Positions 15,114 through 32,145 are shown, numbered from the stretch's first letter. The stretch is DNA of 64,000 bases from an uncultured bacterium (GCA_964535735.1 CAZHTM010000001.1:89369-153368); one strand, 5' to 3'. Program-made: numbers and translations. The notes: generated from the letters alone by a model not told the origin.

Positions 15114-15144
15114 CACCCGGTTGAAATTAGAACGAACGGTTGAT

Positions 15145-15753: not shown

Positions 15754-15754
15754 T

Positions 15755-18127: not shown

Positions 18128-18897
18128 TGCGATTCTTCACTGTGATTCTGGCTTTGTCCGGACTAATGATGGCTCAGGATTTAACGGGCTACGACATTAT
18201 GTATCGGGCGCTCAATAAAAAATCCTGGCAGGATATGAAAGCCGACCTTACCCTGACCATGGTGAATGCCCGTGGCGAGGAACGGGTGCGGCAGATCGCT
18301 TTTTATTCCTCGGATAACGCTCAGGGATTAAACCGGATGCTGATGCGATTTATGGCTCCTGCTGATGTGCGCGGGACAGGATTTCTCACCCTGGAAACCT
18401 CCTCCGGCGATGATGAGCGATATCTCTACCTTCCGGCGTTACGCCGGGTCAAAAAAATTGCCGCCAGTGGGAGCGGCGGAAACTTTATGTCCAGTGATTT
18501 TACGTATTATGATATCGGTAAACCAAAATTGGAGGATTGGACGTACACCCTGTTAGGAGAGGAAAAGGTTCAAGGCAAAACGTGCTATAAAATTGAGTGT
18601 CTTCCCATTGATAAACAGGTTTTGAATGATACCGGATATGGAAAAATTATTCGCTGGGTAGAAAAAGAACGTTTAAATACTGTTCAAAGCATCTATTATG
18701 ATAAAAGTCTCGAAGAGTGGAAGCATCTGACGGTCAATCAAACGTTGGAAATTAAAGACATCGATTTTGCTACAGATATGGTGATGGAGGATATTCAAAT
18801 CCAACATCGCAGTCAAATGGTGTTCTCTAACGTGGACGTTGACACCAATATTCCCGACACTTTTTTCAGTATCCGGTATTTGCAACGGGGTCGTTAG
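18127..18897 (+). CDS. outer-membrane lipoprotein-sorting (LolA-like) periplasmic protein
   Basis: Signal peptide plus text typical of the LolA-like partner of COG1033 exporters (YLYLPALRRVKKIAASG...FMSSDFTYYD). TAATG overlap with the exporter gene. Confidence 0.7.
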   Translation: MRFFTVILALSGLMMAQDLTGYDIMYRALNKKSWQDMKADLTLTMVNARGEERVRQIAFYSSDNAQGLNRMLMRFMAPADVRGTGFLTLETSSGDDERYLYLPALRRVKKIAASGSGGNFMSSDFTYYDIGKPKLEDWTYTLLGEEKVQGKTCYKIECLPIDKQVLNDTGYGKIIRWVEKERLNTVQSIYYDKSLEEWKHLTVNQTLEIKDIDFATDMVMEDIQIQHRSQMVFSNVDVDTNIPDTFFSIRYLQRGR

Positions 18898-20138
18898 TGA
18901 AATGGTGGCGTAAAACCGTTGGGCTCATTGTCCTGACCGTCATGGTGTCTGGTCAGTCCTCTTTTGGGGGATACATGAAGGGCTTGGGTTACTATAATCC
19001 TCATTCCGCGTCCTTTGCACGGTTAGGTACCCGATTCCAGGCCCGATGGAGCAATGATAATGGTCGTTCAGGATATTTTGCCGCCTTGAATTTCGAATCT
19101 GATTTTGCTACGATTGCGCAGGATTCTGCAAACCGGAGCCTGTCGACGCCTGATATGCACATAACGCCCGTGGAATTTTATATGGATTATCATTTCTCAT
19201 CGGCTGATTTACGAGTGGGGCAGCAATTCATTTTTTGGGGCGCCACTGATTGGGTGAATCCCACCGATGTTATCAATCCCTGGGATTTTGAGAATCTTTC
19301 CAGTGAAACGGAAGACTATCGAATTCCGGTCCTGGCCGGTTCTCTGATGATGTATTTGGGAAATTATACAATTCAGGCTGTCCTGGTGCCGGCGTTTACC
19401 GCCACAGTAATTCCCATACCACAAGGGACGCATTTGTACCGACCTCCGGTGGACAAAGATCATCTTCAGGGAGGAATCCGGATTCAGAGTTTCGTGGGTG
19501 CCACCGATGTATCGTTCGCCTATTTTTCTGGATTTAATCATTTACCGACATTCCGGTTTACGGGGATGGATTTTTCAACCGGTACGCCGTTCCCAACCTT
19601 TAAGGCCACTTATTCTCGTCAACAGATGGTGGGCGTGGACTTTGTGCGCACGGTAAATCAATTTGCCCTGAAAGGAGAATCCGCATGGCTCATTACACCC
19701 GATAAAAATGGGACCGATATTTTTGAGGACAACGCTTCGGTTGAAACCGTGTTGGGGATGGATTACATCGCGTCGGAAAATTTCAGCCTTAATTTCCAAT
19801 ATATTAACCATACCCTTCTAAAATATTCGCAATCGGAAGAACAAGACCGAATCGATCAAGCCGGTATGACCGGACATTTGATCCCTCCTGAGAAAATGAC
19901 TCATTCCTTCAGTGGCAGACTGGCCTGGGATCCATTTCCCTACATTACCAGTCAGGTAATCGGTGTGTATCATTTGAAAGACCGGGATTCCTTCCTGCTG
20001 GGTTTCTTATCATGGCAACCGCGGGACGCCGTCTCGGTGACGGTTGGGACGGTAATTTTTTCGGGATCGGAATCATCGGAATACGGCCGTCTTGATAATG
20101 AAGATTTGATATTTCTGGAAATTAAACAGTCCTTTTAA
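18897..20138 (+). CDS. probable outer-membrane beta-barrel protein (DUF1302-like partner)
   Basis: GTG start overlapping the upstream stop. Signal peptide, alternating beta-strand pattern, C-terminal ...LEIKQSF (terminal aromatic residue). Confidence 0.5.
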   Translation: MKWWRKTVGLIVLTVMVSGQSSFGGYMKGLGYYNPHSASFARLGTRFQARWSNDNGRSGYFAALNFESDFATIAQDSANRSLSTPDMHITPVEFYMDYHFSSADLRVGQQFIFWGATDWVNPTDVINPWDFENLSSETEDYRIPVLAGSLMMYLGNYTIQAVLVPAFTATVIPIPQGTHLYRPPVDKDHLQGGIRIQSFVGATDVSFAYFSGFNHLPTFRFTGMDFSTGTPFPTFKATYSRQQMVGVDFVRTVNQFALKGESAWLITPDKNGTDIFEDNASVETVLGMDYIASENFSLNFQYINHTLLKYSQSEEQDRIDQAGMTGHLIPPEKMTHSFSGRLAWDPFPYITSQVIGVYHLKDRDSFLLGFLSWQPRDAVSVTVGTVIFSGSESSEYGRLDNEDLIFLEIKQSF

Positions 20139-20218
20139 GTCCATGAAAAGGGCGTTAATTTTCCTGTGGAGTGGGGCAGATAAGTCCCACCTATTTTCTT
20201 TACAAAGGTTGTGAATAC

Positions 20219-21088
20219 ATGAAGGTAGTGCATCGAATTTTAATCATTATTATGGCTCTAGTTGTCGCCGGAGCGATCGTTTGGTCACTGGATAATGCCG
20301 GGAGTTATTATCTGGCTTCAAGTTTGGAACGGCCTCACATGGAGGCGCATAAACTATGGAAACCGGGTGGGCTCTATGGTCACGGGTTAGGCATTATCGG
20401 ATCTTTGATGATCATGCTATTACTCACATACTCAGCACGAAAGCGAATTCGTCGATTTCGGCGCTGGGGTAGGCTGCCAAACTGGTTAAACTATCACATC
20501 TTTTTAGGTATTTCAGGACCATTACTGATTACCCTTCACACATCCTTCAAATTTGGCGGTTTGGTTTCTATTTCTTATTGGTCGATGATGGCGGTGATGC
20601 TGAGCGGGTTTATCGGGCGATATATTTACGTGAAAATTCCCCGGAAAATAAACGGTGAGGAAATGACCCGAAAAGAATTTGAAGCTCATAATGAAGAATT
20701 AAAGGCTCAGTTGGTACAACAATTTCAATTGTCCGCGAATCAGTTAGCCTTGGTTGAGAAAATCGGTGGGGTGGATAAAATAAAGGAACGTGGTCTCCTG
20801 GGAATATTCACTTTTTTCATTATGGATTTATTTAATTGGATTACTCTTAGACGAATTAGCCATCTTGTTTTTAAATCCGCTTCTGTTCCGAAAAAACAGC
20901 GAAAAGAATTTCATCGTTTATTAAGTCAGCGGGTCAAGAGTTCTCGACGGATTGCCTTTCTCCAGGCCGCACAAAAATTATTCCACTATTGGCATGTTAT
21001 TCATAAACCCTTTGCCTATACAATGATTGTGATCATGATTATTCACGTGGCAATGGCCATTACGCTTGGGTATACGTGGATTTTTTAA
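20219..21088 (+). CDS. integral membrane protein, predicted di-haem b (ferric-reductase/NOX-like transmembrane electron carrier)
   Basis: Two TM helices each carry an H-x13-H pair: YHIFLGISGPLLITLH (His codons 20495 and 20537) and IHKPFAYTMIVIMIIH (21002 and 21044). ATG 20219 is preferred over 20171. Confidence 0.5.
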   Translation: MKVVHRILIIIMALVVAGAIVWSLDNAGSYYLASSLERPHMEAHKLWKPGGLYGHGLGIIGSLMIMLLLTYSARKRIRRFRRWGRLPNWLNYHIFLGISGPLLITLHTSFKFGGLVSISYWSMMAVMLSGFIGRYIYVKIPRKINGEEMTRKEFEAHNEELKAQLVQQFQLSANQLALVEKIGGVDKIKERGLLGIFTFFIMDLFNWITLRRISHLVFKSASVPKKQRKEFHRLLSQRVKSSRRIAFLQAAQKLFHYWHVIHKPFAYTMIVIMIIHVAMAITLGYTWIF

Positions 21089-21089
21089 C

Positions 21090-22403
21090 ATGACCATGGA
21101 CAGTATCATCACCTACGGCATCGGTCTGATTATTATTTTGATATTTTTAGTTCCCTACATAATAAGCATGCGAAAAAATGAAAGACGCACGAGGGAACGG
21201 TTGGCGGAGAGTCAATCCAAAGGACAGGCAAAGCCGCTTCTGCAGCATCCCATTATCAATCAATCGGTGTGTATCGGCTGTGGGATTTGCGTCACCAGTT
21301 GCCCGGAAGGGGACGTCCTGGGTTTGATTAATGGAAAAGCCACCATTATTCATGGGAGTCATTGTGTCGGTCATGGACTTTGTGCGGAGAATTGTCCCAT
21401 CGGGGCGATCGAGGTTGGATTGGGCGACATTAGCGAACGTGAAGATATTCCCCGTCTTACAGATCAATTCGAAACCAACATTCCTGGAATTTATATCGTA
21501 GGTGAATTAAGTGGCATGGCATTGATCCGCAATGCCATAACCCACGGAGTGACAGCCATGAATGCCATCGCTGAATCGCTAAACGGGGCACCGGGTTTGG
21601 ATACATCCGTAGCGATTATTGGCGCCGGACCTTCCGGTCTGTCCGCTGCTTTAAAAGCCAAAGAATTGGGCATTGATTTTCAAATTCTAGATCAAGATAA
21701 ACCTGGAGGGACGATCCTACAATATCCCCGGAAAAAACTGACCTTGGTCCAGCGAGTGACCATACCCCTCTATGGTGATTTAACCCGCGGGGAATATACA
21801 AAGGAAGAATTGCTGGATATTTGGGAGTCGATGATTGAAAAGAATGCCATTGATTTGAAGACGGGACACAAACTGCTGGGTGTGGAACGAAATGATACCG
21901 GTTTTAAGATAAAAACATCCAAAGGGGAGTTGACCGCGGAGAAAGTGATCTTAGCCCTGGGACGGCGGGGTACACCGCGGAAATTGAATGTCCCTGGTGA
22001 AGATTTGGGCAAAGTGATGTATAAACTCATGGATGCGGAAACCTATAAGAACAATCACATTCTTGTAGTGGGAGGCGGCGATAGCGCCATCGAGGCAGCA
22101 ATTGGATTGGCCAGCCAAGCCGGGAACACGGTAACCATCTCGTATCGAAAAGAGCATTTCTTTCGTCTCAAAGCGCGAAATGAAAAAAATATTGAGCTCT
22201 TCATGAATGAGAAGAAATTGGATGTTATCTTCTCCTCGAATGTGAAGGAGATTACTCCGGATTCAGTCAGTGTAGCCATCGGCGAAGAGGTCAAAACGAT
22301 ACCCAATGATTACGTCTTTATTTTTGCAGGTGGTGAATTACCCTTCCCCTTATTGGATTCCATCGGGATTGATTTTGGCAAAAAAATCCGTGCGAAAGTG
22401 TGA
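21090..22403 (+). CDS. membrane-anchored 2x[4Fe-4S] ferredoxin-domain NAD(P)/FAD-dependent oxidoreductase
   Basis: N-terminal TM helix followed by RKNERRTRER. CIGCGICVTSCP and CVGHGLCAENCP. Rossmann motifs IIGAGPSGLSAA and VVGGGDSAIEAA. Starts 1 nt after the upstream stop. Confidence 0.75.
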   Translation: MTMDSIITYGIGLIIILIFLVPYIISMRKNERRTRERLAESQSKGQAKPLLQHPIINQSVCIGCGICVTSCPEGDVLGLINGKATIIHGSHCVGHGLCAENCPIGAIEVGLGDISEREDIPRLTDQFETNIPGIYIVGELSGMALIRNAITHGVTAMNAIAESLNGAPGLDTSVAIIGAGPSGLSAALKAKELGIDFQILDQDKPGGTILQYPRKKLTLVQRVTIPLYGDLTRGEYTKEELLDIWESMIEKNAIDLKTGHKLLGVERNDTGFKIKTSKGELTAEKVILALGRRGTPRKLNVPGEDLGKVMYKLMDAETYKNNHILVVGGGDSAIEAAIGLASQAGNTVTISYRKEHFFRLKARNEKNIELFMNEKKLDVIFSSNVKEITPDSVSVAIGEEVKTIPNDYVFIFAGGELPFPLLDSIGIDFGKKIRAKV

Positions 22404-22404
22404 G

Positions 22405-23817
22405 ATGATGAAAAAAACTCTGTTTTTCTGTCTCTGTTTATTCGTTCCCTGGCAAGTCTTTGGCCAGTTTAGTCCCGGTAAATTATCCCGGTATCATGCG
22501 GAGTTGGAGGGTACATCCAATTGTATTCAATGCCATGATATAGGGAAGAAGGAAGTCTCGGATGGTTGTCAAAAATGCCATACTCCTTTATTAAAACGGA
22601 TTAAGGAAAAGACAGGATATCATGCGGATAAGGCCGATGGATGTAAAGATTGCCATTCCGACCATAACGGAAGAGAATTTGAATTGGTGTATTGGCCTAA
22701 GAACATTAAAAACTTTAATCACAACGAAACCGGATACACACTTTCAGGGAAACACCGGGATGCGAAATGTCGTGATTGTCACCAGCCAAAATATATTCAG
22801 GATAAGGAATTAATAAAATGGGCGGGTGAACATCCTCAGTTTAATATCATGGATCGAACATTTTTAGGATTGGGGACGGAATGTCTGACCTGCCATGAGG
22901 ATGTGCACAGGGATGAAGTATCCGATGACTGCACAAAATGCCATAATACATTTGATTGGAAAAAAGCCGCCGACGAATTTGATCATAACCAGGCGCGTTT
23001 TCTGTTGACCGGTGCTCACGAAAAAGTGAAGTGTGGGAAATGCCATAAAATCCCTGACAATACAAAAAAAGTATGGCAATTAACAGGGATGGCCTTTGAT
23101 CAGTGCGGGCGGTGTCATGACGATGTACATAAGGGCAGTTTTGGATCAACCTGCGAACGGTGCCACACAACAGTGGATTGGAAAAAGAACCAGAAACGGT
23201 TCGATCACAACAGTACCAAGTATCCTCTAGTGGGAAAACATGTCAACGTAGCATGTCAGGATTGTCACACACCTCAATTGCAAGGAACCTTACCCAAATT
23301 TGATTTGTGTAGTCGCTGCCATGCTGACGAACATGATGGCCAGTTCCTGACACGAGCGGAAGGTGGTGAATGTTCTCAATGCCATACAGTGTATGCCTTT
23401 AAGCCCACGACCTTTACAATGTCCATGCATCAAGCCATTCGCTTTACATTGGAGGGCGCGCATCGTGCTGTACCCTGTATCGCCTGCCACAAACCGTACA
23501 TGAAAAAGGACGGAAATACAACAGTGAGATTTACGTGGACGAATCTCCAGTGCACTACCTGTCATAAAGATGAACACAGGAATCAATTTCAGGCGCATTT
23601 TAATAATTCCTGTGATAAATGTCATACAGTCATAACATTTTCACAGATTAACTTTGATCATCAGGCAACCACTTTTCCCTTGGATGGGAAACATCAAAAC
23701 GTCCCTTGCGAAAAATGTCACTTCAAAGAAACCGATTCAGTAGGAGAGTATATTCGATATTATCCAGTAGCCCATCGCTGTGTGGATTGTCACTCCATCA
23801 CCGATCAAATACAGTAA
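22405..23817 (+). CDS. multihaem c-type cytochrome, 17 CxxCH, built from c7-like trihaem units
   Basis: Signal peptide MMKKTLFFCLCLFVPWQVFG. 17 CxxCH counted in the translation. Repeated unit CxxCH-D-H...CxxCH...W...F-H....L-G-H....CxxCH. The ATG immediately follows the upstream TGA. Confidence 0.9.
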   Translation: MMKKTLFFCLCLFVPWQVFGQFSPGKLSRYHAELEGTSNCIQCHDIGKKEVSDGCQKCHTPLLKRIKEKTGYHADKADGCKDCHSDHNGREFELVYWPKNIKNFNHNETGYTLSGKHRDAKCRDCHQPKYIQDKELIKWAGEHPQFNIMDRTFLGLGTECLTCHEDVHRDEVSDDCTKCHNTFDWKKAADEFDHNQARFLLTGAHEKVKCGKCHKIPDNTKKVWQLTGMAFDQCGRCHDDVHKGSFGSTCERCHTTVDWKKNQKRFDHNSTKYPLVGKHVNVACQDCHTPQLQGTLPKFDLCSRCHADEHDGQFLTRAEGGECSQCHTVYAFKPTTFTMSMHQAIRFTLEGAHRAVPCIACHKPYMKKDGNTTVRFTWTNLQCTTCHKDEHRNQFQAHFNNSCDKCHTVITFSQINFDHQATTFPLDGKHQNVPCEKCHFKETDSVGEYIRYYPVAHRCVDCHSITDQIQ

Positions 23818-23833
23818 GGGATCAAAACCGACC

Positions 23834-26374
23834 GTGAACCGATATTTCATCCGGATTCTCGGAGTTCTCTCCCTGGGGATAATATTGTCTGTTGCGCTTG
23901 GACAACAATCCGCCATCGAAGTGAGTGGGTATGATTGTGGTGATTGTCATGGGGCTACCGGTTGGGATATCCTTGAATTCTCAGGTTTTTCCCACCAAAG
24001 CACAGGATTTCTATTAGAAGGCGCTCACGCGGCCCAACCATGTTATGCCTGCCATACGGGAAATACTTTGAGTGAGAAGCATCAATTTCAAGACGTGAAT
24101 ACAGTCTGTTCTTCCTGCCATCTGGATATCCACCAATCCACGTTGGGAGAGGATTGTACTTTTTGTCATGAATTCACCAGTTGGCAAGTAACCCAGAAGA
24201 CCTTTAACCACGAAACCACCCGGTTTCCTTTACAAGGCGCCCATCGGGGAATCGCCTGTGATCAATGCCATACGGAACATCCCATGACGCGCTTTGATTT
24301 TGTGGACACGGATTGTTTTGCCTGTCATCAAACAGATTATAATCGGGCGTTGAATCCTTCACATGTTTTGGCTCGTTTTAACCGGGATTGTCGGATCTGC
24401 CACACCGATCATCGGGCTGGGTGGCGGCCTTCCTTGTTTGATCATGCCGATACCGATTTTCTACTGACCGGAGTGCACATTGTTACGGAATGCGCTGAAT
24501 GTCATATAAATGGCCAATTTGAAGACACTCCTGAGTCCTGTCAGGCGGCCAATTGCCACTTCAACGATTTCCAAACCACCGATTCACCCAACCACATGAT
24601 CTATGGATATCCGGAGCAATATTGTGAAGAATGTCATGTAACCTTAGGATGGACGCCTTCTATTTACACGCATACCATTGATTATGCGTGCAGTTCTTGT
24701 CATATCCCCGATTTTCAGAATGCGCTTAATCCGATCCATAACGTTGAAAATGGATTTAGCACCAATTGTGAAGGATGTCATGTCGACGTAGAATCGTGGG
24801 CCGGGGCAACCTTCGATCATAGCAACGTTGAAATAGGTTCATGCGCCTCCTGCCATTTATCGAATTATAACGCCACCACCAGCCCTAACCATTCTGCTGC
24901 TGGATTTTCTACAAATTGTACATTATGTCATCAATCTACGTCCGATTGGCAACAGGTTCTTTTCGACCATGATCCTGCAATCACTATTCCGTGTTCGGAC
25001 TGCCATATGTCGGATTATAACGAGACCGCATCCAATCCTTCCATACCAAATCATGTGGATTCCGGTTTTTCCACCGATTGTACTCAGTGTCACACATCCA
25101 CATCTGATTGGGCTCAAATAAACTTCGACCATACGTCGGTGAGCATACCCTGCGCGGACTGTCATATGCCCGATTACAATAATTTACCTAACGCTACCTA
25201 TCCTAATGCGCCGAATCACGCTGAACTGGGTTTAACCACCGATTGTACGATCTGCCACAATTCCACGTCCGATTGGACCGACGTTACCTTCAGTCATACT
25301 TCGGTGGACAACCTTCCTTGCGCCGACTGTCATTTGAATCAGTATAATAATACCACTGATCCTGATCATGGCGCTTCCGGGTTTACCACCGACTGTACCC
25401 AGTGCCATACGTCAACATCGGATTGGACACAAGTGAACTTTGATCATAATCTGGTGACCGTTCCTTGCGCCGATTGCCACATGCCGGACTACAATAACAC
25501 CGCCAATTCGTCCAATCCCGATGTTCCCAATCATGTGGATTCAGGATTTACTACTGATTGCACACAATGCCATGTGTCCACATCGGACTGGTCGCAGGTT
25601 GATTTTAACCATGCCACGGTGACCGCGCCTTGCGCCGACTGTCACATGCCCGATTACAATAATTTACCGAACGCTACCTATCCCGACGCCCCGAATCATG
25701 CTGATTTAGGACTATCCACCGATTGTACGATCTGCCACAATTCCACGACTGACTGGACGGATGTTACTTTCACCCATACTTCAGTATCCGATATCCCTTG
25801 TGCTGATTGTCATTTAAATCAATATAACAACACAACCGACCCTAATCATTCCGCTTCCGGATTTTCCACGGATTGTACGCTTTGTCATAATTCCACATCC
25901 GACTGGTTAGATGTCACGTTTGATCATAGCAATATTTCACAACCCTGTGCTGATTGCCATTTGGAAGATTATAATTCAGCTATAAATCCGAATCACATTT
26001 CTCAGCAATACCCCACGACCTGTGAAGATTGTCACACAACTACTTCCTGGACTCCGGCCGACTTCGATCATGACACCCAGTATTTTCCCATATATTCTGG
26101 TAAGCATGATAATGAATGGTCCACATGCACAGCAGAATGCCATATCAACCCTTCTGAGTATTCCGTATTCTCCTGTGGATTAAATGGCGTATGCCATGAA
26201 CATGATCGGGCTAGCATGGACGATAAGCACCAGGGTGAGGTTAGTGGATATGTGTACGAAAGCAATGCCTGTTACAATTGTCACCCTGATGGGACAGAAG
26301 AAGGAGGGGATGGCGATGAAGGGGGTGATATCATCCGTGACTGGCGGGACCATATCAAGCGAATTCGGAAATAG
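23834..26374 (+). CDS. giant multihaem c-type cytochrome, 28 canonical CxxCH plus CX4CH and CX3CH variants; paired-CXXCH module array
   Basis: A GTG 23834 start gives signal-like VNRYFIRILGVLSLGIILSVALGQQ (the ORF-track ATG 23780 would overlap the upstream gene). Motifs were counted directly in the translation. Confidence 0.9.
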   Translation: MNRYFIRILGVLSLGIILSVALGQQSAIEVSGYDCGDCHGATGWDILEFSGFSHQSTGFLLEGAHAAQPCYACHTGNTLSEKHQFQDVNTVCSSCHLDIHQSTLGEDCTFCHEFTSWQVTQKTFNHETTRFPLQGAHRGIACDQCHTEHPMTRFDFVDTDCFACHQTDYNRALNPSHVLARFNRDCRICHTDHRAGWRPSLFDHADTDFLLTGVHIVTECAECHINGQFEDTPESCQAANCHFNDFQTTDSPNHMIYGYPEQYCEECHVTLGWTPSIYTHTIDYACSSCHIPDFQNALNPIHNVENGFSTNCEGCHVDVESWAGATFDHSNVEIGSCASCHLSNYNATTSPNHSAAGFSTNCTLCHQSTSDWQQVLFDHDPAITIPCSDCHMSDYNETASNPSIPNHVDSGFSTDCTQCHTSTSDWAQINFDHTSVSIPCADCHMPDYNNLPNATYPNAPNHAELGLTTDCTICHNSTSDWTDVTFSHTSVDNLPCADCHLNQYNNTTDPDHGASGFTTDCTQCHTSTSDWTQVNFDHNLVTVPCADCHMPDYNNTANSSNPDVPNHVDSGFTTDCTQCHVSTSDWSQVDFNHATVTAPCADCHMPDYNNLPNATYPDAPNHADLGLSTDCTICHNSTTDWTDVTFTHTSVSDIPCADCHLNQYNNTTDPNHSASGFSTDCTLCHNSTSDWLDVTFDHSNISQPCADCHLEDYNSAINPNHISQQYPTTCEDCHTTTSWTPADFDHDTQYFPIYSGKHDNEWSTCTAECHINPSEYSVFSCGLNGVCHEHDRASMDDKHQGEVSGYVYESNACYNCHPDGTEEGGDGDEGGDIIRDWRDHIKRIRK
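25151..25945 (+). repeat. in-frame tandem duplication inside the 28-haem gene (480-bp / 160-aa six-haem period)
   Basis: Modules A (25151-25318), B (25319-25465) and C (25466-25630), then A' (25631-25798) and B' (25799-25945). tgcgc.gactgtca.atgcccgattacaataattta recurs exactly 480 bp apart. Confidence 0.85.
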
Positions 26375-26377
26375 AGT

Positions 26378-27196
26378 ATGTCGTATTCAGCGATTATTCT
26401 CATGGTTGTATTGGCTGGAAGTCCTCAATTGGAATTGACCGATATACCTTGTTCTAAATGTCACACTCCCGATGCCTGGATTCCTCTAAATACCAATCGG
26501 ACATTTAATCATTCCAGGGATACACTATTTCCCCTTGAAGGTCGCCATCGTGATGCCGATTGTCTTCAATGCCATCCTGGTGAAACAACGGTAGAAATTC
26601 ATGCATTTGCCAAAGCCCGGCCCGAGTGTACAACCTGCCACATGGATATCCACATGAATCAACTCGGATCGGAATGTGATCGATGCCACACAACAGAAAC
26701 TTGGGACATGAGCCGGTGGACGAATAATCATAGTCATACAATTTTTACATTGGATGGGATGCACGCGTCCCTGGAATGCCGGGACTGTCATGGCATCAAT
26801 TTTGACCGTCTGGCAGGTCAACTAACGACAGATTGTTATATGTGCCATCAGCAAAGTTTTGTGGCTGCGATCAATGCTATCGATCTCGATCATCCTGAAA
26901 ATCAAAATTGCCGCTTATGTCACAATAGTCGTGCCTGGGTTCCTATTGATATGTCGCAGCACGATTCCCTATTTCCCATTTATTCAGGAGCACATAGAGG
27001 AAAGTGGACCACCTGTAAAGCTGAATGCCATATTGATCCGACCAATTACCAATTATTTTCTTGCGGCCTGAACGGTGTATGTCATGAACATGACAAGGAT
27101 AAAATGGACCAAAAGCACCTGGGGGAAGTAAGTAATTATAGTTACAATAGCTCCAGATGTTATGATTGTCATAGCAGCGGTGGAGGAGGCGATTAA
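26378..27196 (+). CDS. octahaem c-type cytochrome (8 CxxCH + CX3CH), periplasmic
   Basis: Signal-like N-terminus. 8 CxxCH counted. The C-terminal ~75 aa are paralogous to the C-terminus of the 28-haem protein. Starts 4 nt after the upstream stop. Confidence 0.9.
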   Translation: MSYSAIILMVVLAGSPQLELTDIPCSKCHTPDAWIPLNTNRTFNHSRDTLFPLEGRHRDADCLQCHPGETTVEIHAFAKARPECTTCHMDIHMNQLGSECDRCHTTETWDMSRWTNNHSHTIFTLDGMHASLECRDCHGINFDRLAGQLTTDCYMCHQQSFVAAINAIDLDHPENQNCRLCHNSRAWVPIDMSQHDSLFPIYSGAHRGKWTTCKAECHIDPTNYQLFSCGLNGVCHEHDKDKMDQKHLGEVSNYSYNSSRCYDCHSSGGGGD

Positions 27197-28738
27197 ATGA
27201 AATTTTTCAGTTTATGTGTAAGTCTACTAATCCTAAGCTCATTGGGTTGGTCTCAGGAACGGGTGGTAATCGACGTGAATGGCAAAATCACCTACTTAAC
27301 TACCGATCAAGTGTATTGCGATGTGGGCACTGAAGTGGGTGTGGAAGAAGGGGATACCCTTCATGTTACTCGGGGAGTCGACGAAATCGGATTGGTAGTG
27401 GTTACGTATATATCCCGAAAGTCCAGTGTTTGCGAGCCCTTGGTTCCTGCTGAGACTTTTCGATTGGGAGACCGGGTCCATCTGAAGAAAGTCAAACTGG
27501 TGACTATAGAAGAGACAACGGTAACACCGGCTCAAGTAAAGGAGGTCTCTCCCGTCAGTAAAAGACTGGGCCTAGCTCATACAGGCAATTTTTCGTTCCG
27601 CTATACCTATGGACAGTTTGCAGATAGTCTGTATAGTCAACGGAGTATCGCCTCTATCCAATACGGAATACACATATCCAATCCCATTGAAACCCAATTT
27701 TGGTTGTATGGGCGTTCCAATATACAGAACCGGGATTTCACACTTTACCAGGCACGGTGGGTTTTGGGGAAAGAGGACAGCCGCTTTAACGGTCAGCTCG
27801 GCAGAGTTTATTCTGCTTCTTTGTCCGGGATTGGAGCTACCGATGGTTTGTTGGTGAATTCGGCGTTATCGGAACGCCTATCAGCTGGTTTTTTAGTGGG
27901 GATGGAACCGGAACCCACCACACTTAAGTTTAATTCCAATGTCAAAAAAGGGGGTATTTTTACCCGGTTTGAGACGAAAGGGGAAAAACGATCTTTTGAG
28001 GGAAGTCTGGCTTTGGTGGGCCAATATGCCAGTGGGAAGGCTGATCGAGAATTCATATACGACCGTCTGCGATATCGAAATGGGCGACGACTGTATTTTA
28101 CCATGAACCAGACTATTGACTTATATCGAAATGGTCCTGTCGGCGGCCGGAAAGGGATTGAACTGGTGTCCAATCAACTATCACTTCGGGTGCGGGTCAC
28201 ATCATTTTTAAGTGTCTATACCCGACTCTCCAACCGGAAACAAATCCTTTACCAGGTTTCAAGTTCTTCGCTCCCGGATTCGCTGTTTGTAGATGAAACT
28301 CGGTCAGGCTGGTACAACGCCATTCGGTGGACGACAAAAGGGGACCGGTCGTTTCTCCTGGGAGCCAATTACCGGTATCAATCAGTAGGTGGTAGTAACT
28401 CAATCTATGCGTTTTTCACCTATCGCGGACCCTATTCCCGCGGGCGATGGAATTTTGATTATACCGGCAGCTACATTCACAATTTGCTGATTACTGGTAC
28501 ACGCAATCAATTCGGCTTCTCCCGGACTATAGGGAAGACGGGAACGTTCTTTACCGAATACGAGCTCTATGTGTATGGATATGGCAATATCATGACAGAT
28601 TATGTTCAACATAATATTACGTCCACCTATTCATGGAGATTGCAGTCCCGGATGGTAATAACCGCATCATTGGATGCGACGATTGATAAGGATTATTATT
28701 TCTATTATTTGTATTTCGGATTTAATTACCGGTTTTAG
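27197..28738 (+). CDS. outer-membrane beta-barrel protein with N-terminal soluble domain (porin-like partner of the cytochromes)
   Basis: The ATG abuts the upstream TAA. Signal peptide MKFFSLCVSLLILSSLGWSQ. Long amphipathic beta-strand pattern rich in Y/G/R/N/S. C-terminus YLYFGFNYRF (OMP-type terminal Phe). Confidence 0.6.
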   Translation: MKFFSLCVSLLILSSLGWSQERVVIDVNGKITYLTTDQVYCDVGTEVGVEEGDTLHVTRGVDEIGLVVVTYISRKSSVCEPLVPAETFRLGDRVHLKKVKLVTIEETTVTPAQVKEVSPVSKRLGLAHTGNFSFRYTYGQFADSLYSQRSIASIQYGIHISNPIETQFWLYGRSNIQNRDFTLYQARWVLGKEDSRFNGQLGRVYSASLSGIGATDGLLVNSALSERLSAGFLVGMEPEPTTLKFNSNVKKGGIFTRFETKGEKRSFEGSLALVGQYASGKADREFIYDRLRYRNGRRLYFTMNQTIDLYRNGPVGGRKGIELVSNQLSLRVRVTSFLSVYTRLSNRKQILYQVSSSSLPDSLFVDETRSGWYNAIRWTTKGDRSFLLGANYRYQSVGGSNSIYAFFTYRGPYSRGRWNFDYTGSYIHNLLITGTRNQFGFSRTIGKTGTFFTEYELYVYGYGNIMTDYVQHNITSTYSWRLQSRMVITASLDATIDKDYYFYYLYFGFNYRF

Positions 28739-29037: not shown

Positions 29038-29475
29038 GTGGAGAAGATGAAAACAGAGTCAATAAAAAAATCAGAAATTCAACGTAACTGGTGGGTTGCC
29101 GATGCCGAGGGACAAACACTTGGACGGTTTGCCAGTAAAATTGCTACCGTTCTTCGGGGTAAGCATAAACCGAATTATACACCTCATATGGATATGGGGG
29201 ATTTTGTAGTTGTGGTCAACGCAGAAAAAATCCGGGTGAGCGGGAATAAAGAAACAGAAAAGACGTATTTCCGTCATACTGGATATCCAGGTGGAACCAA
29301 AGAATCCAACCTGAGTCATATGCGTCGAACGTTTCCTGAACGTATTGTGGAACAGGCCGTGAAAGGTATGTTGCCCCACAATCGGTTAGGACGGAAGTTA
29401 TACACCCATTTAAAAGTTTATGCCGGAAGTGGACATCCCCACGTGGCACAAAACCCCAAACCCATGGAAATTTAG
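29038..29475 (+). CDS. rplM: 50S ribosomal protein L13
   Basis: [41 protein letters not shown]. The start is either GTG 29038 or ATG 29047. Confidence 0.95.
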
Positions 29476-29478
29476 TCA

Positions 29479-29871
29479 ATGTCAAAAGCAGTTTATCAAG
29501 GCACCGGCCGACGGAAGAGTTCCGTTGCTCGAGTGTATTTGATCCCTGGCAAAGGGACGATAACCGTCAATGGCCGTCCCTATGAAGAATATTTATCACG
29601 TAAATCCCTGGCCATTCTGACGCGGAAACCGCTGGAAATATTGGATGCTGTGGAAGAATATGATATTAAAGCCAATGTATATGGTGGCGGATTAAGCGGT
29701 CAGGCCGGAGCGATTCAACTGGGGATTTCCCGGGCCCTGCTTCAGGTCAATGAAGATTATCGCCGAACGTTAAGGCAACATGGCTTATTAACCCGGGATT
29801 CCCGTCGGGTGGAGCGCAAGAAATATGGTCAACCCGGCGCCCGTAAACGGTTCCAATTCTCAAAACGGTAA
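29479..29871 (+). CDS. rpsI: 30S ribosomal protein S9
   Basis: GTGRRKSSVARVYL..G.G.I.VNG...GGG.SGQAGAI..GISRAL...RD.R.VERKKYG...ARK..QFSKR. Confidence 0.95.
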   Translation: MSKAVYQGTGRRKSSVARVYLIPGKGTITVNGRPYEEYLSRKSLAILTRKPLEILDAVEEYDIKANVYGGGLSGQAGAIQLGISRALLQVNEDYRRTLRQHGLLTRDSRRVERKKYGQPGARKRFQFSKR

Positions 29872-29873
29872 TA

Positions 29874-30809
29874 TTGTCTATGGCAACACAGGTACAATTC
29901 GAAGATTTATTGAGTACAGGCGCCCATTTTGGCCACGTAACCAGTAAATGGCATCCAAACTTTAAACCCTATATCCTCATGGAAAAAAATGGGGTTTATA
30001 TTATCAATCTGGAAGAAACCATCGCCGCAATCGAAAAGGCTCAAGCGTTTATTCGTGAGGTGGTATCCAAAAACGGCGAAATCCTATTTATTGGAACTAA
30101 AAAACAGGCCCGTGACATTGTCCAGCAGGAAGCGGACCGCTGTCGCATGTTTTACGTGGTGGAGCGTTGGTTTGGTGGCACCTTGACAAACTTTGTCACG
30201 ATTAAAAAATCCATCAAGCGCCTCCAGATGCTGGAAAAAGAAGGCTCCAGTATTTATGAAAATCTTACGAAAAAAGAAATCCAGCAATTAAACCGGGAAC
30301 GGATTCGTCTCTCCGATCAGCATCGGGGTATCAAAGATATGCGGCGGTTACCAGATGCTCTGGTCGTTGTAGACGCGAACTACGAAACTACGGCAGTCAA
30401 AGAGGCCAAACGGTTAGAAATTCCCGTCATTGCTTTGGTGGACACCAATACGGACCCGACTCCCATTGATTATCCCATTCCAGCCAATGATGATTCTCTG
30501 CGCACAATCCAGATTATTATCTCCGCCTTAGCTGATGCGGTTCTGGATGCCCGGAATGCGAGTAAGGAGAAGAATTCAGGATCGGAAGCCAAAGAAAAGG
30601 CAGCCAAACCGGTAGAAGAAGCCATCCCAGCTAAAGAGGTGACGGAAGTGCCGGTAGAGGTGTCTAAAAAGGCTGAAGATGTCCAGACTGAGGCGGTTGC
30701 TGGTGCTCCCATTGAAGCGGAAGCGCCCGCAAACACTGAATCTTCTGATGAATCGACCCAATCTGAAGAAAAATCAACATCAGAAAAAAAGACCGATACA
30801 GATCAATGA
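29874..30809 (+). CDS. rpsB: 30S ribosomal protein S2 with long acidic C-terminal extension
   Basis: LLSTGAHFGHVTSKWHPNFKPYI...FIGTKKQA...RWFGGTLTNF. About 85 extra low-complexity E/K/S/T-rich residues at the C-terminus. The start is TTG 29874 or ATG 29880. Confidence 0.95.
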   Translation: MSMATQVQFEDLLSTGAHFGHVTSKWHPNFKPYILMEKNGVYIINLEETIAAIEKAQAFIREVVSKNGEILFIGTKKQARDIVQQEADRCRMFYVVERWFGGTLTNFVTIKKSIKRLQMLEKEGSSIYENLTKKEIQQLNRERIRLSDQHRGIKDMRRLPDALVVVDANYETTAVKEAKRLEIPVIALVDTNTDPTPIDYPIPANDDSLRTIQIIISALADAVLDARNASKEKNSGSEAKEKAAKPVEEAIPAKEVTEVPVEVSKKAEDVQTEAVAGAPIEAEAPANTESSDESTQSEEKSTSEKKTDTDQ

Positions 30810-31411
30810 ATATAACAGCCCAATTAGTAAAACAATTACGCGAGCGCACTGGCGCTGGAATGATGGATTGTAAAAAAGCCCTGGTGGAAACTCAGGGTGA
30901 TTTGGATAAGGCCGTGGATGCTCTTCGTAAAGCCGGTGTGGCTAAAGCGGAGAAAAAAGGCGTTCGGGCTGCCAACGAAGGTTTGATTTATTCTTACATC
31001 CACCATGGTGGCCGTCTGGGAGTGCTTCTGGATATCTCCTGCGAGACGGACTTCGTCGCAAAAACAGAAGGTTTTCGTGACCTGGCCCATAATTTGGCTA
31101 TGCAAATCGCTGCCACCAATCCCCTGGCTATTCGTCGGGAAGATTTGGATCCTGCAATAGTGGCCCATGAAAAAGAGATCTATGTGGATCAGGCGCGGAA
31201 TTCCGGTAAACCGGAAAATATCGTGGAAAAAATGGTGGAAGGTCGTCTGAATAAATATTATCAGGAAGTCTGTCTAATGGAACAGGCCTTCATCAAAGAT
31301 CCGGATAAGAAAGTCAAAGATCTGGTTACGGAGGCCATTGCCACCTTGGGTGAAAACATTACCGTGAATCGATTCACCCGCTACGCTGTCGGCGAGGAAA
31401 TCTCCTCTTAA
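30806..31411 (+). CDS. tsf: elongation factor Ts (short ~200-aa form)
   Basis: MNITAQLVKQLRERTGAGMMDCKKAL.ETQGDLDKAVD.LRKAG. ATGA overlap with rpsB. Confidence 0.95.
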   Translation: MNITAQLVKQLRERTGAGMMDCKKALVETQGDLDKAVDALRKAGVAKAEKKGVRAANEGLIYSYIHHGGRLGVLLDISCETDFVAKTEGFRDLAHNLAMQIAATNPLAIRREDLDPAIVAHEKEIYVDQARNSGKPENIVEKMVEGRLNKYYQEVCLMEQAFIKDPDKKVKDLVTEAIATLGENITVNRFTRYAVGEEISS

Positions 31412-32140
<729 letters not shown>

Positions 32141-32145
32141 AATTC

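What the first reader, a model, noticed from the sequence alone, without database searches (positions are those of the whole stretch)
26084..27196. Conserved ~75-aa C-terminal module shared by the 28-haem and 8-haem proteins, with CX3CH, a C-x5-CHEH element and a terminal CYxCH
**Seen in sequence**
- In the 28-haem protein (26084-26296): FPIYSGKHDNEWSTCTAECHINPSEYSVFSCGLNGVCHEHDRASMDDKHQGEVSGYVYESNACYNCHPDG.
- In the 8-haem protein (26972-27196): FPIYSGAHRGKWTTCKAECHIDPTNYQLFSCGLNGVCHEHDKDKMDQKHLGEVSNYSYNSSRCYDCHSSG.
- These two stretches are much more alike than the rest of the two proteins.
- The shared module contains a CX3CH motif (CTAECH / CKAECH), an SCGLNGVCHEH element and a final CxxCH.
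- Both are followed by Gly/Asp-rich tails.

**Inference**
- This may be a shared docking or termination module, for example the part that inserts into or contacts the adjacent barrel. It may carry unusual haem or metal ligation.
- I have a recollection of similar ...CHEH...MD.KH..V.GY.Y.S..CY.CHP.G termini in other multihaem proteins, but I cannot verify that here.
Basis: partly seen in the sequence, partly recalled or inferred. Interest (0 to 1): 0.5.

Follow-up and report, generated by a model that had tools for sequence, protein, structure and literature searches.

The report
Repeated three-haem cytochrome domain, stretched motifs
The shared stretch is one copy of a widespread but uncatalogued three-haem cytochrome domain that ends each ten-haem building block of long electron-carrying proteins. 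In this lineage two of its three haem-attachment motifs are lengthened (CX3CH and CX5CH), and a gene for an outer-membrane barrel follows the cytochrome genes almost everywhere.

Summary
The two C-terminal stretches (26048-26296 and 26936-27181) are 59% identical, against about 23-32% for the rest of the two proteins.

The module is a ~78-83 aa three-haem c-type cytochrome domain with no Pfam, NCBIfam or PDB family. It is widespread:
- more than 581 genome hits;
- 1183 representative proteins;
- found in Marinimicrobia, Ignavibacteria, Bacteroidota, Calditrichota and Gemmatimonadota.

Most relatives carry three canonical CxxCH motifs. The window's CX3CH and "C-x5-CHEH" are lengthened versions of sites 1 and 2, fixed in Marinimicrobia in both paralogues. 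Cysteine bookkeeping then gives 31 and 10 haems, not 28 and 8.

The module is not a C-terminal-only element. I found 84 internal and 75 terminal copies with the same profile score and the same consensus. One protein holds about 25 matched stretches along its whole length.

The barrel link is real. A homologue of the predicted 22-strand barrel (27197-28738) lies directly downstream in all 75 related loci whose contig continues past the cytochrome gene. In 57 of 70 loci, window included, the cytochrome next to the barrel ends with the module.

Best reading: haems 8-10 at one end of a decahaem wire unit in an FCB-superphylum porin-cytochrome cluster. Dedicated barrel docking is unproven.

The parts
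26048..26296 (+). Module copy 1: C-terminal three-haem domain of the 864-aa (31-haem) cytochrome, aa 757-839
   Evidence: Translation. Profile match to the module alignment. Relatives found at E down to 3e-32.
26126..26143 (+). Site 1 of copy 1: CTAECH, a CX3CH haem-attachment motif
   Evidence: Aligns with canonical C-x-x-CH in 13 of 16 aligned relatives. The CX3CH form is found in Marinimicrobia loci.
26174..26203 (+). Site 2 of copy 1: CGLNGVCH (CX5CH) followed by E-H
   Evidence: Aligns with canonical C-x-x-CHEH of relatives. CGLNG[VI]CH is conserved in both paralogues across the Marinimicrobia loci, with one CX9CH exception in L001.
26270..26284 (+). Site 3 of copy 1: CYNCH, a canonical CxxCH
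26297..26374 (+). Tail of the long cytochrome: acidic Gly/Asp/Glu stretch, then the basic-hydrophobic end IIRDWRDHIKRIRK, then the stop codon
   Evidence: Similar basic-hydrophobic tails of about 12-20 aa follow the terminal module in many Bacteroidota and Ignavibacteria proteins.
26936..27181 (+). Module copy 2: C-terminal three-haem domain (haems 8-10) of the 272-aa decahaem cytochrome
   Evidence: Among 12 orthologues the module is 51% identical at non-Cys/His positions, against 30% for haems 1-7.
27014..27031 (+). Site 1 of copy 2: CKAECH (CX3CH)
27062..27091 (+). Site 2 of copy 2: CGLNGVCH (CX5CH) followed by E-H
27158..27172 (+). Site 3 of copy 2: CYDCH
27173..27196 (+). Tail SSGGGGD plus TAA. 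The Gly codons (ggtggaggaggc) contain a GGAGG Shine-Dalgarno-like sequence, and the stop abuts the ATG of the barrel gene (TAAATG)
   Evidence: All 17 short cytochromes of this type end in Asp + TAA, often overlapping or abutting the barrel start.
24422..24640 (+). Degenerate internal copy of the module inside the 864-aa protein (haems 8-10 of its N-terminal decahaem unit). Its site 2 is CX4CH, CQAANCH at 24539-24559
   Evidence: Weak profile match of 10.7 bits. BLASTP aligns it with the module of the 272-aa protein. Haem spacing is identical to the 272-aa protein. Unit HMM match.
23780..26374 (+). Gene for the 864-aa cytochrome with 31 predicted haem sites: 28 CX2CH, 1 CX3CH, 1 CX4CH and 1 CX5CH. 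The start codon is uncertain
26378..27196 (+). Gene for the 272-aa decahaem cytochrome: 8 CX2CH, 1 CX3CH and 1 CX5CH
27197..28738 (+). Gene for the 513-aa outer-membrane protein: signal peptide, small N-terminal beta domain (aa 22-101), linker, and a predicted 22-strand beta-barrel (aa 126-512)
   Evidence: AlphaFold2, pLDDT 83.6. Foldseek matches to usher and porin barrels. No Pfam or NCBIfam family. Conserved directly downstream of the cytochromes.
22306..23817 (+). Gene for a 17-CxxCH cytochrome without the module, upstream in the same cluster
20171..22403 (+). Two conserved upstream genes: a membrane protein with His-rich helices that is weakly DUF4405-like (20171-21088), and a membrane-anchored 2x[4Fe-4S] plus FAD/NAD(P) oxidoreductase (21066-22403)
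   Evidence: Pfam. Present in 63 and 69 of the 79 related loci. The order p305 > p445 > cytochromes > barrel holds in 57 of the 80 sources, window included. Six nearly invariant His.

Best explanation
The shared stretch is a self-contained three-haem c-type cytochrome domain of about 78-83 residues.

**Predicted haem binding**
- Its three Cys-Xn-Cys-His sites each attach one haem covalently and supply the proximal His.
- Three further conserved His residues supply the distal ligands: SGKH, the second His of CHEH, and MDxxH. All three haems would then be bis-His.

**Place in the protein family**
- The domain forms haems 8-10 at the C-terminal end of a decahaem building block of about 225-250 aa.
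- The 272-aa protein is one such block.
- The 864-aa protein is built from three parts: one block with a decayed module, nine tandem two-haem repeats, and a terminal module.
- In other FCB-superphylum bacteria the same pieces are fused head to tail into proteins with 31-73 CxxCH sites.

**Lengthened motifs in Marinimicrobia**
- Site 1 has gained one residue (CX3CH).
- Site 2 has gained three (CX5CH, CGLNG[VI]CH).
- Both changes have been kept by purifying selection in both paralogues since an old duplication.

**Inferred function**
- The module is the haem triad at the C-terminal end of each wire segment.
- It would pass electrons either to the next segment or, in the copy that ends the last cytochrome gene, into or through the predicted 22-strand outer-membrane barrel. 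That barrel gene is tightly (translationally) coupled to it.
- The whole cluster is a porin-cytochrome-type conduit across the cell envelope. Its parts are a His-rich membrane protein, a membrane-anchored FeS flavoprotein, the cytochromes and the barrel.

**Shown:** domain boundaries, conservation, repeat architecture, synteny and the barrel fold prediction.

**Inferred:** haem occupancy of the CX3CH and CX5CH sites, the ligand assignment, the direction of electron flow, and any contact with the barrel.
For: **The unusual motifs sit at canonical haem sites.** Relatives carry three canonical CxxCH motifs exactly where the window has CX3CH, CX5CH and CxxCH.

**Bookkeeping fits.** All Cys and five His are invariant, and a sixth His (CHEH) is present in 14 of 16 sequences. 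Every Cys in both proteins lies in a CXnCH site: 62 = 31x2 and 20 = 10x2.

**Site 2 is a recurrent expansion point.** Spacings seen there are CX2 (most), CX3, CX4, CX5 and one CX9. This includes the CX4CH in the internal decayed copy of the 864-aa protein.

**There is a weak class III cytochrome signal.**
- PF02085 scores E = 1.4e-3 and 1.6e-2.
- hhalign places sites 1-3 on haems I, II (CX4CH) and III of Desulfovibrio c3.

**The module is a repeat unit.**
- Copies number 1-5 per protein at a period of about 223 aa.
- Each repeat holds nine haems, as three ~75-aa three-haem subdomains, the third being the module.
- Unit-HMM hits tile the long proteins.
- One representative protein has 25 matched stretches along its 1885 aa.

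**Internal and terminal copies are equally conserved**.

**The module is under stronger constraint than haems 1-7.** Non-Cys/His identity is 51% against 30%. The similarity is not due to gene conversion.

**Synteny with the barrel and upstream genes is strong.**
- The barrel is directly downstream in 75 of 75 testable loci.
- The module ends the barrel-adjacent cytochrome in 57 of 70 loci.
- The stop-start junction is TAAATG, or the genes overlap, in short-cytochrome/barrel pairs.
- The upstream genes are conserved, and the order p305 > p445 > cytochromes > barrel holds in 57 of 80 sources.

**The barrel fold is predicted with confidence**.
Against: - No experiment shows that a CX5CH motif binds haem. 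Shi et al. 2014 (PMC4245776) state that binding by CX>4CH motifs remains to be determined, and a text search for CX5CH found no paper.
- AlphaFold2 gave no usable model of the module (pLDDT 48). The haem arrangement and ligand assignment therefore rest on sequence alone.
- No solved structure is detectably related by sequence.
- The class III similarity is below Pfam's threshold.
- The related loci are the 79 best of more than 581 hits, chosen through the FPIYSG[KE]H pattern. The synteny frequencies apply to that sample only.
- The direction of electron flow and the substrate are unknown.
Confidence: 0.72

Rival explanations
1. Dedicated barrel-docking or termination module. The C-terminal module is the part of the cytochrome that inserts into or binds the adjacent barrel, and that contact is why it is so conserved.
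For: - A barrel homologue lies directly downstream in all 75 testable loci.
- In 57 of 70 loci the cytochrome adjacent to the barrel ends with a strong module.
- The short cytochrome gene and the barrel gene abut or overlap, and all 17 short cytochromes end in a conserved Asp.
- Non-canonical spacing is enriched in terminal copies. In the loci about 22 of 75 terminal copies are non-canonical and none of 84 internal ones.
- The module is more conserved than haems 1-7.
Against: - More than half of the copies (84 of 159) are internal and cannot all dock a barrel. Internal and terminal copies have the same score and consensus.
- Proteins made almost entirely of this repeat exist.
- In 13 of 70 loci the barrel-adjacent cytochrome ends differently.
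- The 864-aa protein also ends with the module although it is not the gene next to the barrel.
- Internal CX3CH and CX4CH variants exist in the wider set of representatives.
- One contig has the module with no barrel after it.
Confidence: 0.25
2. The lengthened sites (CX5CH above all) no longer bind haem in Marinimicrobia. They would instead form a disulfide-closed loop or a Cys/His metal site, leaving the terminal module with one or two haems and a new function.
For: - No documented CX5CH haem site was found in the literature searched. Shi et al. 2014 note that CX>4CH binding is unproven.
- The loop sequence GLNG[VI] is conserved across the Marinimicrobia loci, which would also fit a specific new ligand or interaction site.
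- The closest relative, L001, has a nine-residue loop containing an extra His (CGLEDGHGFSCH).
- No dedicated haem lyase gene lies in the window.
Against: - Both Cys, the proximal His and the following E-H are all retained.
- The site is homologous to canonical CxxCH sites in about 140 other copies.
- Intermediate CX3CH and CX4CH forms at the same site are of kinds known, from my own knowledge, to bind haem, for example the CX4CH sites of Desulfovibrio cytochrome c3.
- Losing the middle haem would break a tightly packed three-haem chain.
Confidence: 0.2
3. The similarity is an artefact. It would be either generic resemblance between Cys/His-rich multihaem sequences or a recent duplication or gene conversion between neighbouring genes, with no functional meaning.
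For: Both proteins are full of CxxCH repeats, which inflates local similarity.
Against: - The module profile scores 113-130 bits on the two terminal copies but 11 bits or less on every other repeat of the same two proteins.
- Non-Cys/His positions such as FPIYSG, W24, F41, Y68 and G82 are invariant across phyla.
- Third codon positions are 42% identical, and paralogues group by type across genomes.
Confidence: 0.02

Closest known systems
Polymeric c7-type multihaem cytochromes of Geobacter (for example GSU1996; NCBIfam TIGR04257 'nanowire_3heme'; Pfam PF14522)
   Same: - Long periplasmic proteins built from tandem ~70-80 aa three-haem domains with bis-His haems.
- The N-terminal parts of both window proteins match PF14522 above threshold.
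- The module itself recurs as a tandem unit.
   Different: - The module region does not reach PF14522 (E = 3.3) or TIGR04257.
- Its motif spacing is site 1 to site 2 about 16 aa, and site 2 to site 3 about 28-32 aa.
- Its signature (FPIYSGKH ... FSC..CHEH ... MD..H ... GYVY.S..CY.CHP.G) is its own.
- It marks the end of a larger 9-10-haem super-repeat.
Class III tetrahaem cytochrome c3 of Desulfovibrio (Pfam PF02085)
   Same: - Dense bis-His haems.
- The second site of c3 is naturally CX4CH, and hhalign puts the module's expandable site 2 on it.
- PF02085 is the only Pfam family with any signal on the module.
   Different: - The scores (19.3 and 16.0 bits) are below the gathering score of 22.9.
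- The module has three sites, not four.
- The distal-His pattern differs: CHEH follows site 2, whereas c3 has CHH after site 1.
- The c3 sequence used was recalled from memory.
MtrCAB of Shewanella (outer decahaem MtrC, periplasmic decahaem MtrA, 26-strand barrel MtrB)
   Same: - The gene order is large cytochrome, small decahaem, barrel.
- The small cytochrome has ten haems, enough to span a membrane.
- The barrel gene immediately follows the decahaem gene.
   Different: - The 272-aa protein has no match to the DmsE/MtrA family, and the 864-aa protein scores 75 bits against a cut-off of 192.
- The barrel has no match to any Pfam or NCBIfam family and is predicted to have 22 strands plus an N-terminal domain.
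- The large cytochrome has 31 haems and no lipoprotein cysteine.
Porin-cytochrome (Pcc) gene clusters of Geobacter and of Ignavibacterium album, IALB_1837-1840 (Shi et al. 2014, PMC4245776)
   Same: - A barrel of about 20 strands is encoded next to multihaem cytochromes.
- Pcc clusters have been reported in Ignavibacteria, a group in which this module is common.
- Atypical CX3-15CH motifs were noted in Pcc outer cytochromes.
   Different: - I could not test homology to OmbB/OmaB or to IALB_1838/1839, because no reference sequences were available.
- The gene order differs, with the barrel last.
- Shi et al. report no atypical motifs in Pcc periplasmic cytochromes.
- The conserved FeS-flavoprotein and His-rich membrane protein partners are not part of the described Pcc clusters.
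Atypical haem c attachment motifs: CX3CH and CX4CH, and the CX15CH of MccA, which needs a dedicated lyase (own knowledge)
   Same: Two cysteines followed by His with more than two intervening residues, at a position homologous to a canonical site.
   Different: - Spacings of five and nine residues are not documented in the literature I could search.
- No dedicated lyase gene lies nearby.
- Here one homologous site shows a natural series: CX2, CX3, CX4, CX5 and CX9.

Membership tests
c-type multihaem cytochrome domain (general) | Cys-Xn-Cys-His attachment motifs with enough conserved His for axial ligation, in an exported protein | tested here: met
   - Three CXnCH sites plus three further conserved His per module.
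- Every Cys lies in such a site.
- Both proteins have N-terminal hydrophobic signal-like segments.
c-type multihaem cytochrome domain (general) | Covalent haem actually attached at each site, including CX3CH and CX5CH | not testable with these tools
   Needs haem-peptide mass spectrometry or spectroscopy.
Pfam PF02085 Cytochrom_CIII (class III c3) | Score above the gathering threshold (22.9 bits) on the module | tested here: not met
   16.0 and 19.3 bits, E = 0.016 and 0.0014. hhalign probability against a recalled c3 sequence is 30%.
Pfam PF14522 Cytochrome_C7 / NCBIfam TIGR04257 nanowire_3heme | Profile match over the module | tested here: not met
   - PF14522 scores 8 bits, E = 3.3, on the module. 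It matches only the N-terminal parts of the proteins.
- TIGR04257 hits only the 503-aa protein, and weakly.
DmsE/MtrA decahaem family (TIGR03508) | Score above the curated cut-off of 192 bits | tested here: not met
   The 272-aa protein has no hit at E <= 0.01. The 864-aa protein scores 75.4 bits on its repeat region.
MtrB/PioB outer-membrane barrel family | Match of the 513-aa protein to a curated barrel model | tested here: not met
   No Pfam or NCBIfam family at E <= 0.01. The top 50 Foldseek matches are ushers and general porins, and no MtrB entry is among them.
Porin-cytochrome conduit (functional class) | An outer-membrane beta-barrel gene adjacent to, and co-conserved with, multihaem cytochrome genes | tested here: met
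   A 22-strand barrel is predicted. It lies directly downstream in 75 of 75 testable loci.
Porin-cytochrome conduit (functional class) | A cytochrome physically threaded through or bound to the barrel, and electron transfer across the outer membrane | not testable with these tools
No experimental data exist.
Pcc (OmbB/OmaB/OmcB) family | Sequence homology to OmbB and OmaB | not tested
Shi et al. 2014 report a distant Pcc cluster in I. album.
Atypical haem motif served by a dedicated lyase (MccA type) | A dedicated haem lyase gene next to the cytochrome gene | tested here: not met
   - Pfam found no Ccm or Ccs family among the window proteins scanned.
- The WG..W.WD motif was found only in ORFs of Flavobacteriaceae and Saprospiraceae loci, not in the window or in Marinimicrobia loci.

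The most novel reading that the evidence does not exclude
The FCB-superphylum cluster is a distinct, undescribed class of envelope-spanning electron conduit. Its parts are a His-rich (haem b-like) membrane protein, a cytoplasm-facing FeS/FAD NAD(P)-type oxidoreductase, decahaem-unit cytochromes and a 22-strand barrel.

- Electrons would come from a cytoplasmic pyridine-nucleotide or ferredoxin-type donor rather than from the quinol pool.
- The terminal three-haem module would be the part lodged in the barrel or exposed beyond it.
- In Marinimicrobia its CX5CH (and CX9CH) loop would be a true new haem-attachment spacing, tuning that exit haem.
Probability: 0.15. Interest if true: 0.75.

Novelty: new variant of a known kind. 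Interest (0 to 1): 0.45.

Why it matters
**A common domain goes unrecognised**
- About 1200 representative proteins, and hundreds of genomes across Marinimicrobia, Ignavibacteria, Bacteroidota, Calditrichota and Gemmatimonadota, carry a sharply conserved three-haem domain.
- No domain library recognises it, so these proteins are labelled "hypothetical" or "cytochrome c3 family".

**Haem counts are underestimated**
- Counting only CxxCH understates the haem content: 28 instead of 31, and 8 instead of 10.
- It also hides the decahaem unit that explains how these giant cytochromes are built.

**A natural series for maturation studies**
- One homologous attachment site occurs with 2, 3, 4, 5 and 9 residues between the cysteines.
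- This is a ready-made natural series for asking how far cytochrome c maturation systems tolerate longer spacing.

**Ecological reach**
- The cytochromes are invariably linked to a barrel gene, and usually to an FeS flavoprotein and a His-rich membrane protein.
- This points to a widespread extracellular electron-transfer apparatus, little described in the literature I could search. It occurs in abundant marine and sediment bacteria such as Marinimicrobia (SAR406), which are not usually counted among electroactive organisms.

Tried and rejected
**Led nowhere**
- AlphaFold2 of the module from a 16-sequence alignment gave pLDDT 48 and was unusable, so no fold search was run on it.
- Sequence and profile searches of the PDB gave nothing significant. 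The best cytochrome hits were OmcZ 7lq5 (E = 0.46) and a GSU1996 fragment, 3ouq (E = 2.6).
- Pfam and NCBIfam have no family for the module or for the barrel.
- Literature searches found little:
  - CX5CH and spelling variants gave 0 and 2 papers.
  - Searches on Marinimicrobia, Ignavibacteria, Bacteroidota and Melioribacter found no description of this module or cluster.
- Cluster look-ups and protein searches returned only "hypothetical protein" or "cytochrome c3 family protein".

**Considered and rejected**
- Recent gene conversion between the two copies.
- Generic CxxCH similarity.
- A terminal-specific sequence signature: none was found.
- The upstream DUF1302 barrel (18897-20138) as part of the system. 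It belongs to a TetR/MMPL/LolA-like/DUF1302 operon and recurs in only 2 related loci.
- A haem lyase gene beside the cluster: none in the window.

- Prediction of the module-barrel complex.
- Comparison with OmbB or with IALB_1838/1839.

Full report
**1.

Translating the stated coordinates returns the quoted peptides. The region carries four co-directional genes with almost no spacing:
- a 503-aa cytochrome (22306-23817);
- an 864-aa cytochrome (23780-26374);
- a 272-aa cytochrome (26378-27196);
- a 513-aa protein (27197-28738).

BLASTP of the 864-aa and 272-aa proteins aligns their C-termini. The 83-aa module is 59% identical between the two. The rest of that alignment is about 23% identical, and the N-terminal alignment is 32% identical. 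With its conserved lead-in, the module spans 26048-26296 and 26936-27181.

**2. The odd motifs are lengthened canonical haem sites**

The first copy alone retrieves relatives at E = 3e-32 to 4e-19 from 5.8 billion proteins. In the alignments most relatives read:

FPIYSGKH-x-GEW-xx-C-xx-CH ... FSC-xx-CHEH ... MD-xx-H ... GYVY-x-S-xx-CY-x-CHP-x-G

That is three ordinary CxxCH motifs. The window's CTAECH/CKAECH sits on the first with one extra residue. CGLNGVCH sits on the second with three extra residues.

The invariant columns are F13, P14, I15, S17, G18, H20, W24, C27, C31, H32, F41, C43, C49, H50, H61, Y68, C75, C78, H79 and G82. The second His of CHEH is present in 14 of 16 sequences. This gives six His for three bis-His haems.

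Cysteine bookkeeping agrees:
- The 864-aa protein has 62 Cys = 28 CX2CH + CX3CH + CX4CH (CQAANCH, 24539-24559) + CX5CH.
- The 272-aa protein has 20 Cys = 8 + 1 + 1.

The proteins therefore have 31 and 10 predicted haems.

**3. No curated family covers the module**
- On the module, Pfam gives only sub-threshold Cytochrom_CIII hits of 16-19 bits.
- NCBIfam has nothing on the module.
- PDB sequence and profile searches give nothing significant.
The probability is only 30%. Haem II of c3 is naturally CX4CH.
- AlphaFold2 of the module failed (pLDDT 48).
- Source annotations are "hypothetical protein" or "cytochrome c3 family protein".

**4. The module is widespread and repeated, not a C-terminal speciality**

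An exhaustive profile search of 1.84 billion representatives found 1183 proteins at E <= 1e-3 and 173 at E <= 1e-30. Many have numerous matched stretches. P0015, at 1885 aa, has 25.

A scan of one genome per species found more than 581 confirmed hits. The best 79 loci come from these groups:
- Marinimicrobia, the closest, which share the longer match;
- Ignavibacteria and Melioribacteraceae;
- Bacteroidales, Prolixibacteraceae, Flavobacteriaceae and Saprospiraceae;
- Calditrichota and Zixibacteria;
- one locus each from Omnitrophica and Vicinamibacteria.

Gemmatimonadota appear among the protein hits.

In these loci I counted 159 strong copies in 93 ORFs, at 1-5 copies per protein and a period of about 223 aa. 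Of these, 75 lie within 40 aa of the C-terminus and 84 are internal. Mean profile scores are 124.2 and 123.6, and the two consensus sequences are practically identical.

In Bacteroidales proteins each 223-aa repeat holds nine CxxCH motifs, arranged as three ~75-aa three-haem subdomains. The third subdomain is the module.

**5. The decahaem unit**

The ten haem sites of the 272-aa protein have nearly the same spacing as the first ten sites of the 864-aa protein. BLASTP and a unit HMM align the two. The CX4CH of the 864-aa protein falls on site 2 of a decayed internal module (24422-24640).

The 864-aa protein then continues with nine tandem two-haem repeats and ends in the intact module. The long proteins of other phyla are mosaics of the same pieces.

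Among 12 orthologous short decahaems, non-Cys/His identity is 30% for haems 1-7 and 51% for the module. The module is therefore under stronger constraint.

**6. The lengthened spacing is lineage-specific and old**

Counts in the loci:
- Internal copies: all canonical. 83 of 84 match the strict pattern, and the remaining one has canonical sites but an FPINSG lead-in.
- Terminal copies: 51 canonical.
- Terminal copies with CX3CH at site 2: 7, from Calditrichota plus the "CTT[AS]CHPQ" forms.
- Marinimicrobia with CX5CH at site 2 only: 2.
- Marinimicrobia with CX3CH plus CX5CH: 11. One more, from L007, was missed by the pattern.
- The short protein of L001, the closest relative, has CX9CH (CGLEDGHGFSCH).

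In the wider representative set, site 2 also shows CX4CH, including in internal copies. It also shows another CX5CH (CTSADGCH), and one protein has CX9CH at site 1.

The two window copies are 63% identical in DNA and 42% at third codon positions. Modules from long and short proteins group by type across genomes. The duplication is therefore old, and the conserved CGLNG[VI]CH loop is kept by selection.

I found no paper documenting a CX5CH haem site. Shi et al. 2014 state that binding by CX>4CH motifs is undetermined (PMC4245776).

**7. The barrel and the cluster**

AlphaFold2, using 27 homologues, predicts the following for the 513-aa protein at pLDDT 83.6:
- a signal peptide;
- a small beta domain (aa 22-101);
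- a disordered linker;
- 22 beta strands (aa 126-512).

Foldseek matches usher and porin barrels. The protein has no Pfam or NCBIfam family. All named relatives are hypothetical proteins of Marinimicrobia or the FCB group.

Synteny results:
- A family HMM finds a homologue directly downstream of the cytochromes in 75 of 79 loci. The four without one are cut contigs.
- A Gemmatimonadales contig shows module, then barrel (E = 7e-23), then FeS flavoprotein.
- One Gemmatimonadetes contig is an exception, with sulfatase genes after the module.
- In 57 of 70 loci the cytochrome next to the barrel ends with the module.
- Homologues of the 305-aa membrane protein occur in 63 of the 79 loci, and of the 445-aa FeS/FAD protein in 69.
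- The order 305 > 445 > cytochromes > barrel holds in 57 of the 80 sources, window included.

**8. Tails and junctions**

All 17 short decahaem genes end in Asp followed by TAA. The barrel start abuts or overlaps this end: TAAATG in the window, and GATGATTAA read as ATG-ATT-AAA in several others.

In the window the Gly codons of SSGGGGD spell GGAGG eight bases before the barrel ATG. Part of the "Gly/Asp-rich tail" may therefore be shaped by translation signals for the next gene.

The long proteins instead carry tails of about 12-25 aa with a basic-hydrophobic end.

**9. Interpretation**

Shown:
- a discrete, strongly conserved three-site cytochrome domain;
- its role as the last third of a repeating unit;
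- the homology of the odd motifs to canonical sites;
- a tight and near-universal genomic link to a predicted barrel and to two redox partners.

Inferred:
- All three sites bind haem.
- The module is the end-of-segment haem triad, handing electrons to the next segment or to the barrel complex.
- The cluster is a porin-cytochrome-type conduit.

It cannot explain the equally conserved internal copies.

**10. Comparison with known systems**

The system works like MtrCAB and Pcc conduits, and the proteins are built like Geobacter's polymeric c7 cytochromes. Every sequence-family test I could run failed:
- PF02085, PF14522 and TIGR04257 on the module;
- TIGR03508 on the cytochromes;
- every barrel family on the 513-aa protein.

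Homology to OmbB/OmaB and to the I. album Pcc proteins was not tested.

I therefore rate this a new variant of a known kind. It is an uncatalogued three-haem domain family with a natural CX2 to CX9 spacing series, inside a conserved FCB-superphylum porin-cytochrome cluster that I did not find described in the literature available to me.

Noticed in passing
window 20171-22403 (+): Two genes upstream of the cytochromes are conserved alongside them in most related loci.
- The 305-aa membrane protein has six nearly invariant His in hydrophobic helices: H75, H113, H127, H279, H282 and H296, numbered along the stop-to-stop ORF that begins at 20159. It is weakly DUF4405-like (E = 0.006, below threshold). 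DUF4405 proteins were shown to bind haem b (PMC11334425).
- The 445-aa protein has an N-terminal membrane anchor, a 2x[4Fe-4S] ferredoxin domain and a Pyr_redox_3 FAD/NAD(P) domain.

Together they look like a route from a cytoplasmic reductant across the inner membrane to the cytochromes, without an obvious quinol oxidase.
   Followed up: partly
window 26372-26380 and 27173-27199: The 864-aa, 272-aa and 513-aa genes are all in the same reading frame.
- A single stop codon plus one sense codon separates the first two.
- A single stop codon (TAAATG) separates the last two.
- GGAGG lies inside the Gly codons of the 272-aa tail.

In other Marinimicrobia the long and short cytochrome genes overlap in different frames, so the split into separate genes is real.
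   Followed up: partly
L001 10319-11155 (short cytochrome of the closest relative): Site 2 of its module reads CGLEDGHGFSCH. That is nine residues between the cysteines, with an extra His in the loop, where the window has CGLNGVCH. Representative P0070 has a similar nine-residue expansion at site 1, CGGGSANGAGCH.
   Followed up: no
Terminal modules of L011, L053, L068 and proteins P0012, P0053, P0298: A recurrent terminal variant, C-T-T-[AS]-C-H-P-Q, has CX3CH at site 2 and lacks the second His of CHEH. One haem of these terminal modules would therefore lose its usual distal ligand.
   Followed up: no
P0015 (1885 aa, from the representative library): The module profile matches 25 stretches spread over this 1885-aa protein. 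The copies I looked at follow one another directly. This shows the module is an autonomous domain that can be polymerised. Its source organism is unknown.
   Followed up: no
window 15121-20138 (+): A TetR regulator, an MMPL/RND-type transporter, a LolA-like protein and a DUF1302 outer-membrane protein form a separate operon just upstream. The DUF1302 protein is a second barrel candidate near the cytochromes, but it recurs in only two related loci.
   Followed up: partly
Ignavibacteria loci L014, L018, L022, L023, L038, L041, L056, L062, L070 and others: Here the cytochrome next to the barrel does not end with the module. It ends in a different motif, for example CH-STSHWGDGP...IKRD, some 440-580 aa after the last strong module. 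This may be an alternative terminal domain.
   Followed up: no
L046, L060, L067, L076 (Flavobacteriaceae and Saprospiraceae loci): ORFs of about 1040 aa carrying a WG..W.WD motif lie within the fetched flanks of the cytochrome cluster. The motif is typical of haem-handling CcsA/CcmF proteins. No such ORF is present in the window or in the Marinimicrobia loci. I did not work out their exact position relative to the cluster.
   Followed up: no
window 36096-39875 (-): A 1259-aa Peptidase_C25 (gingipain-like) protein with a C-terminal FlgD_ig-type domain. This fits an FCB-group organism.
   Followed up: no
window 29038-32703 (+): Directly after the barrel gene comes a housekeeping run that reads as rplM, rpsI, rpsB, tsf, pyrH and probably frr. 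I identified these from the translations and my own knowledge, without a family search.
   Followed up: no
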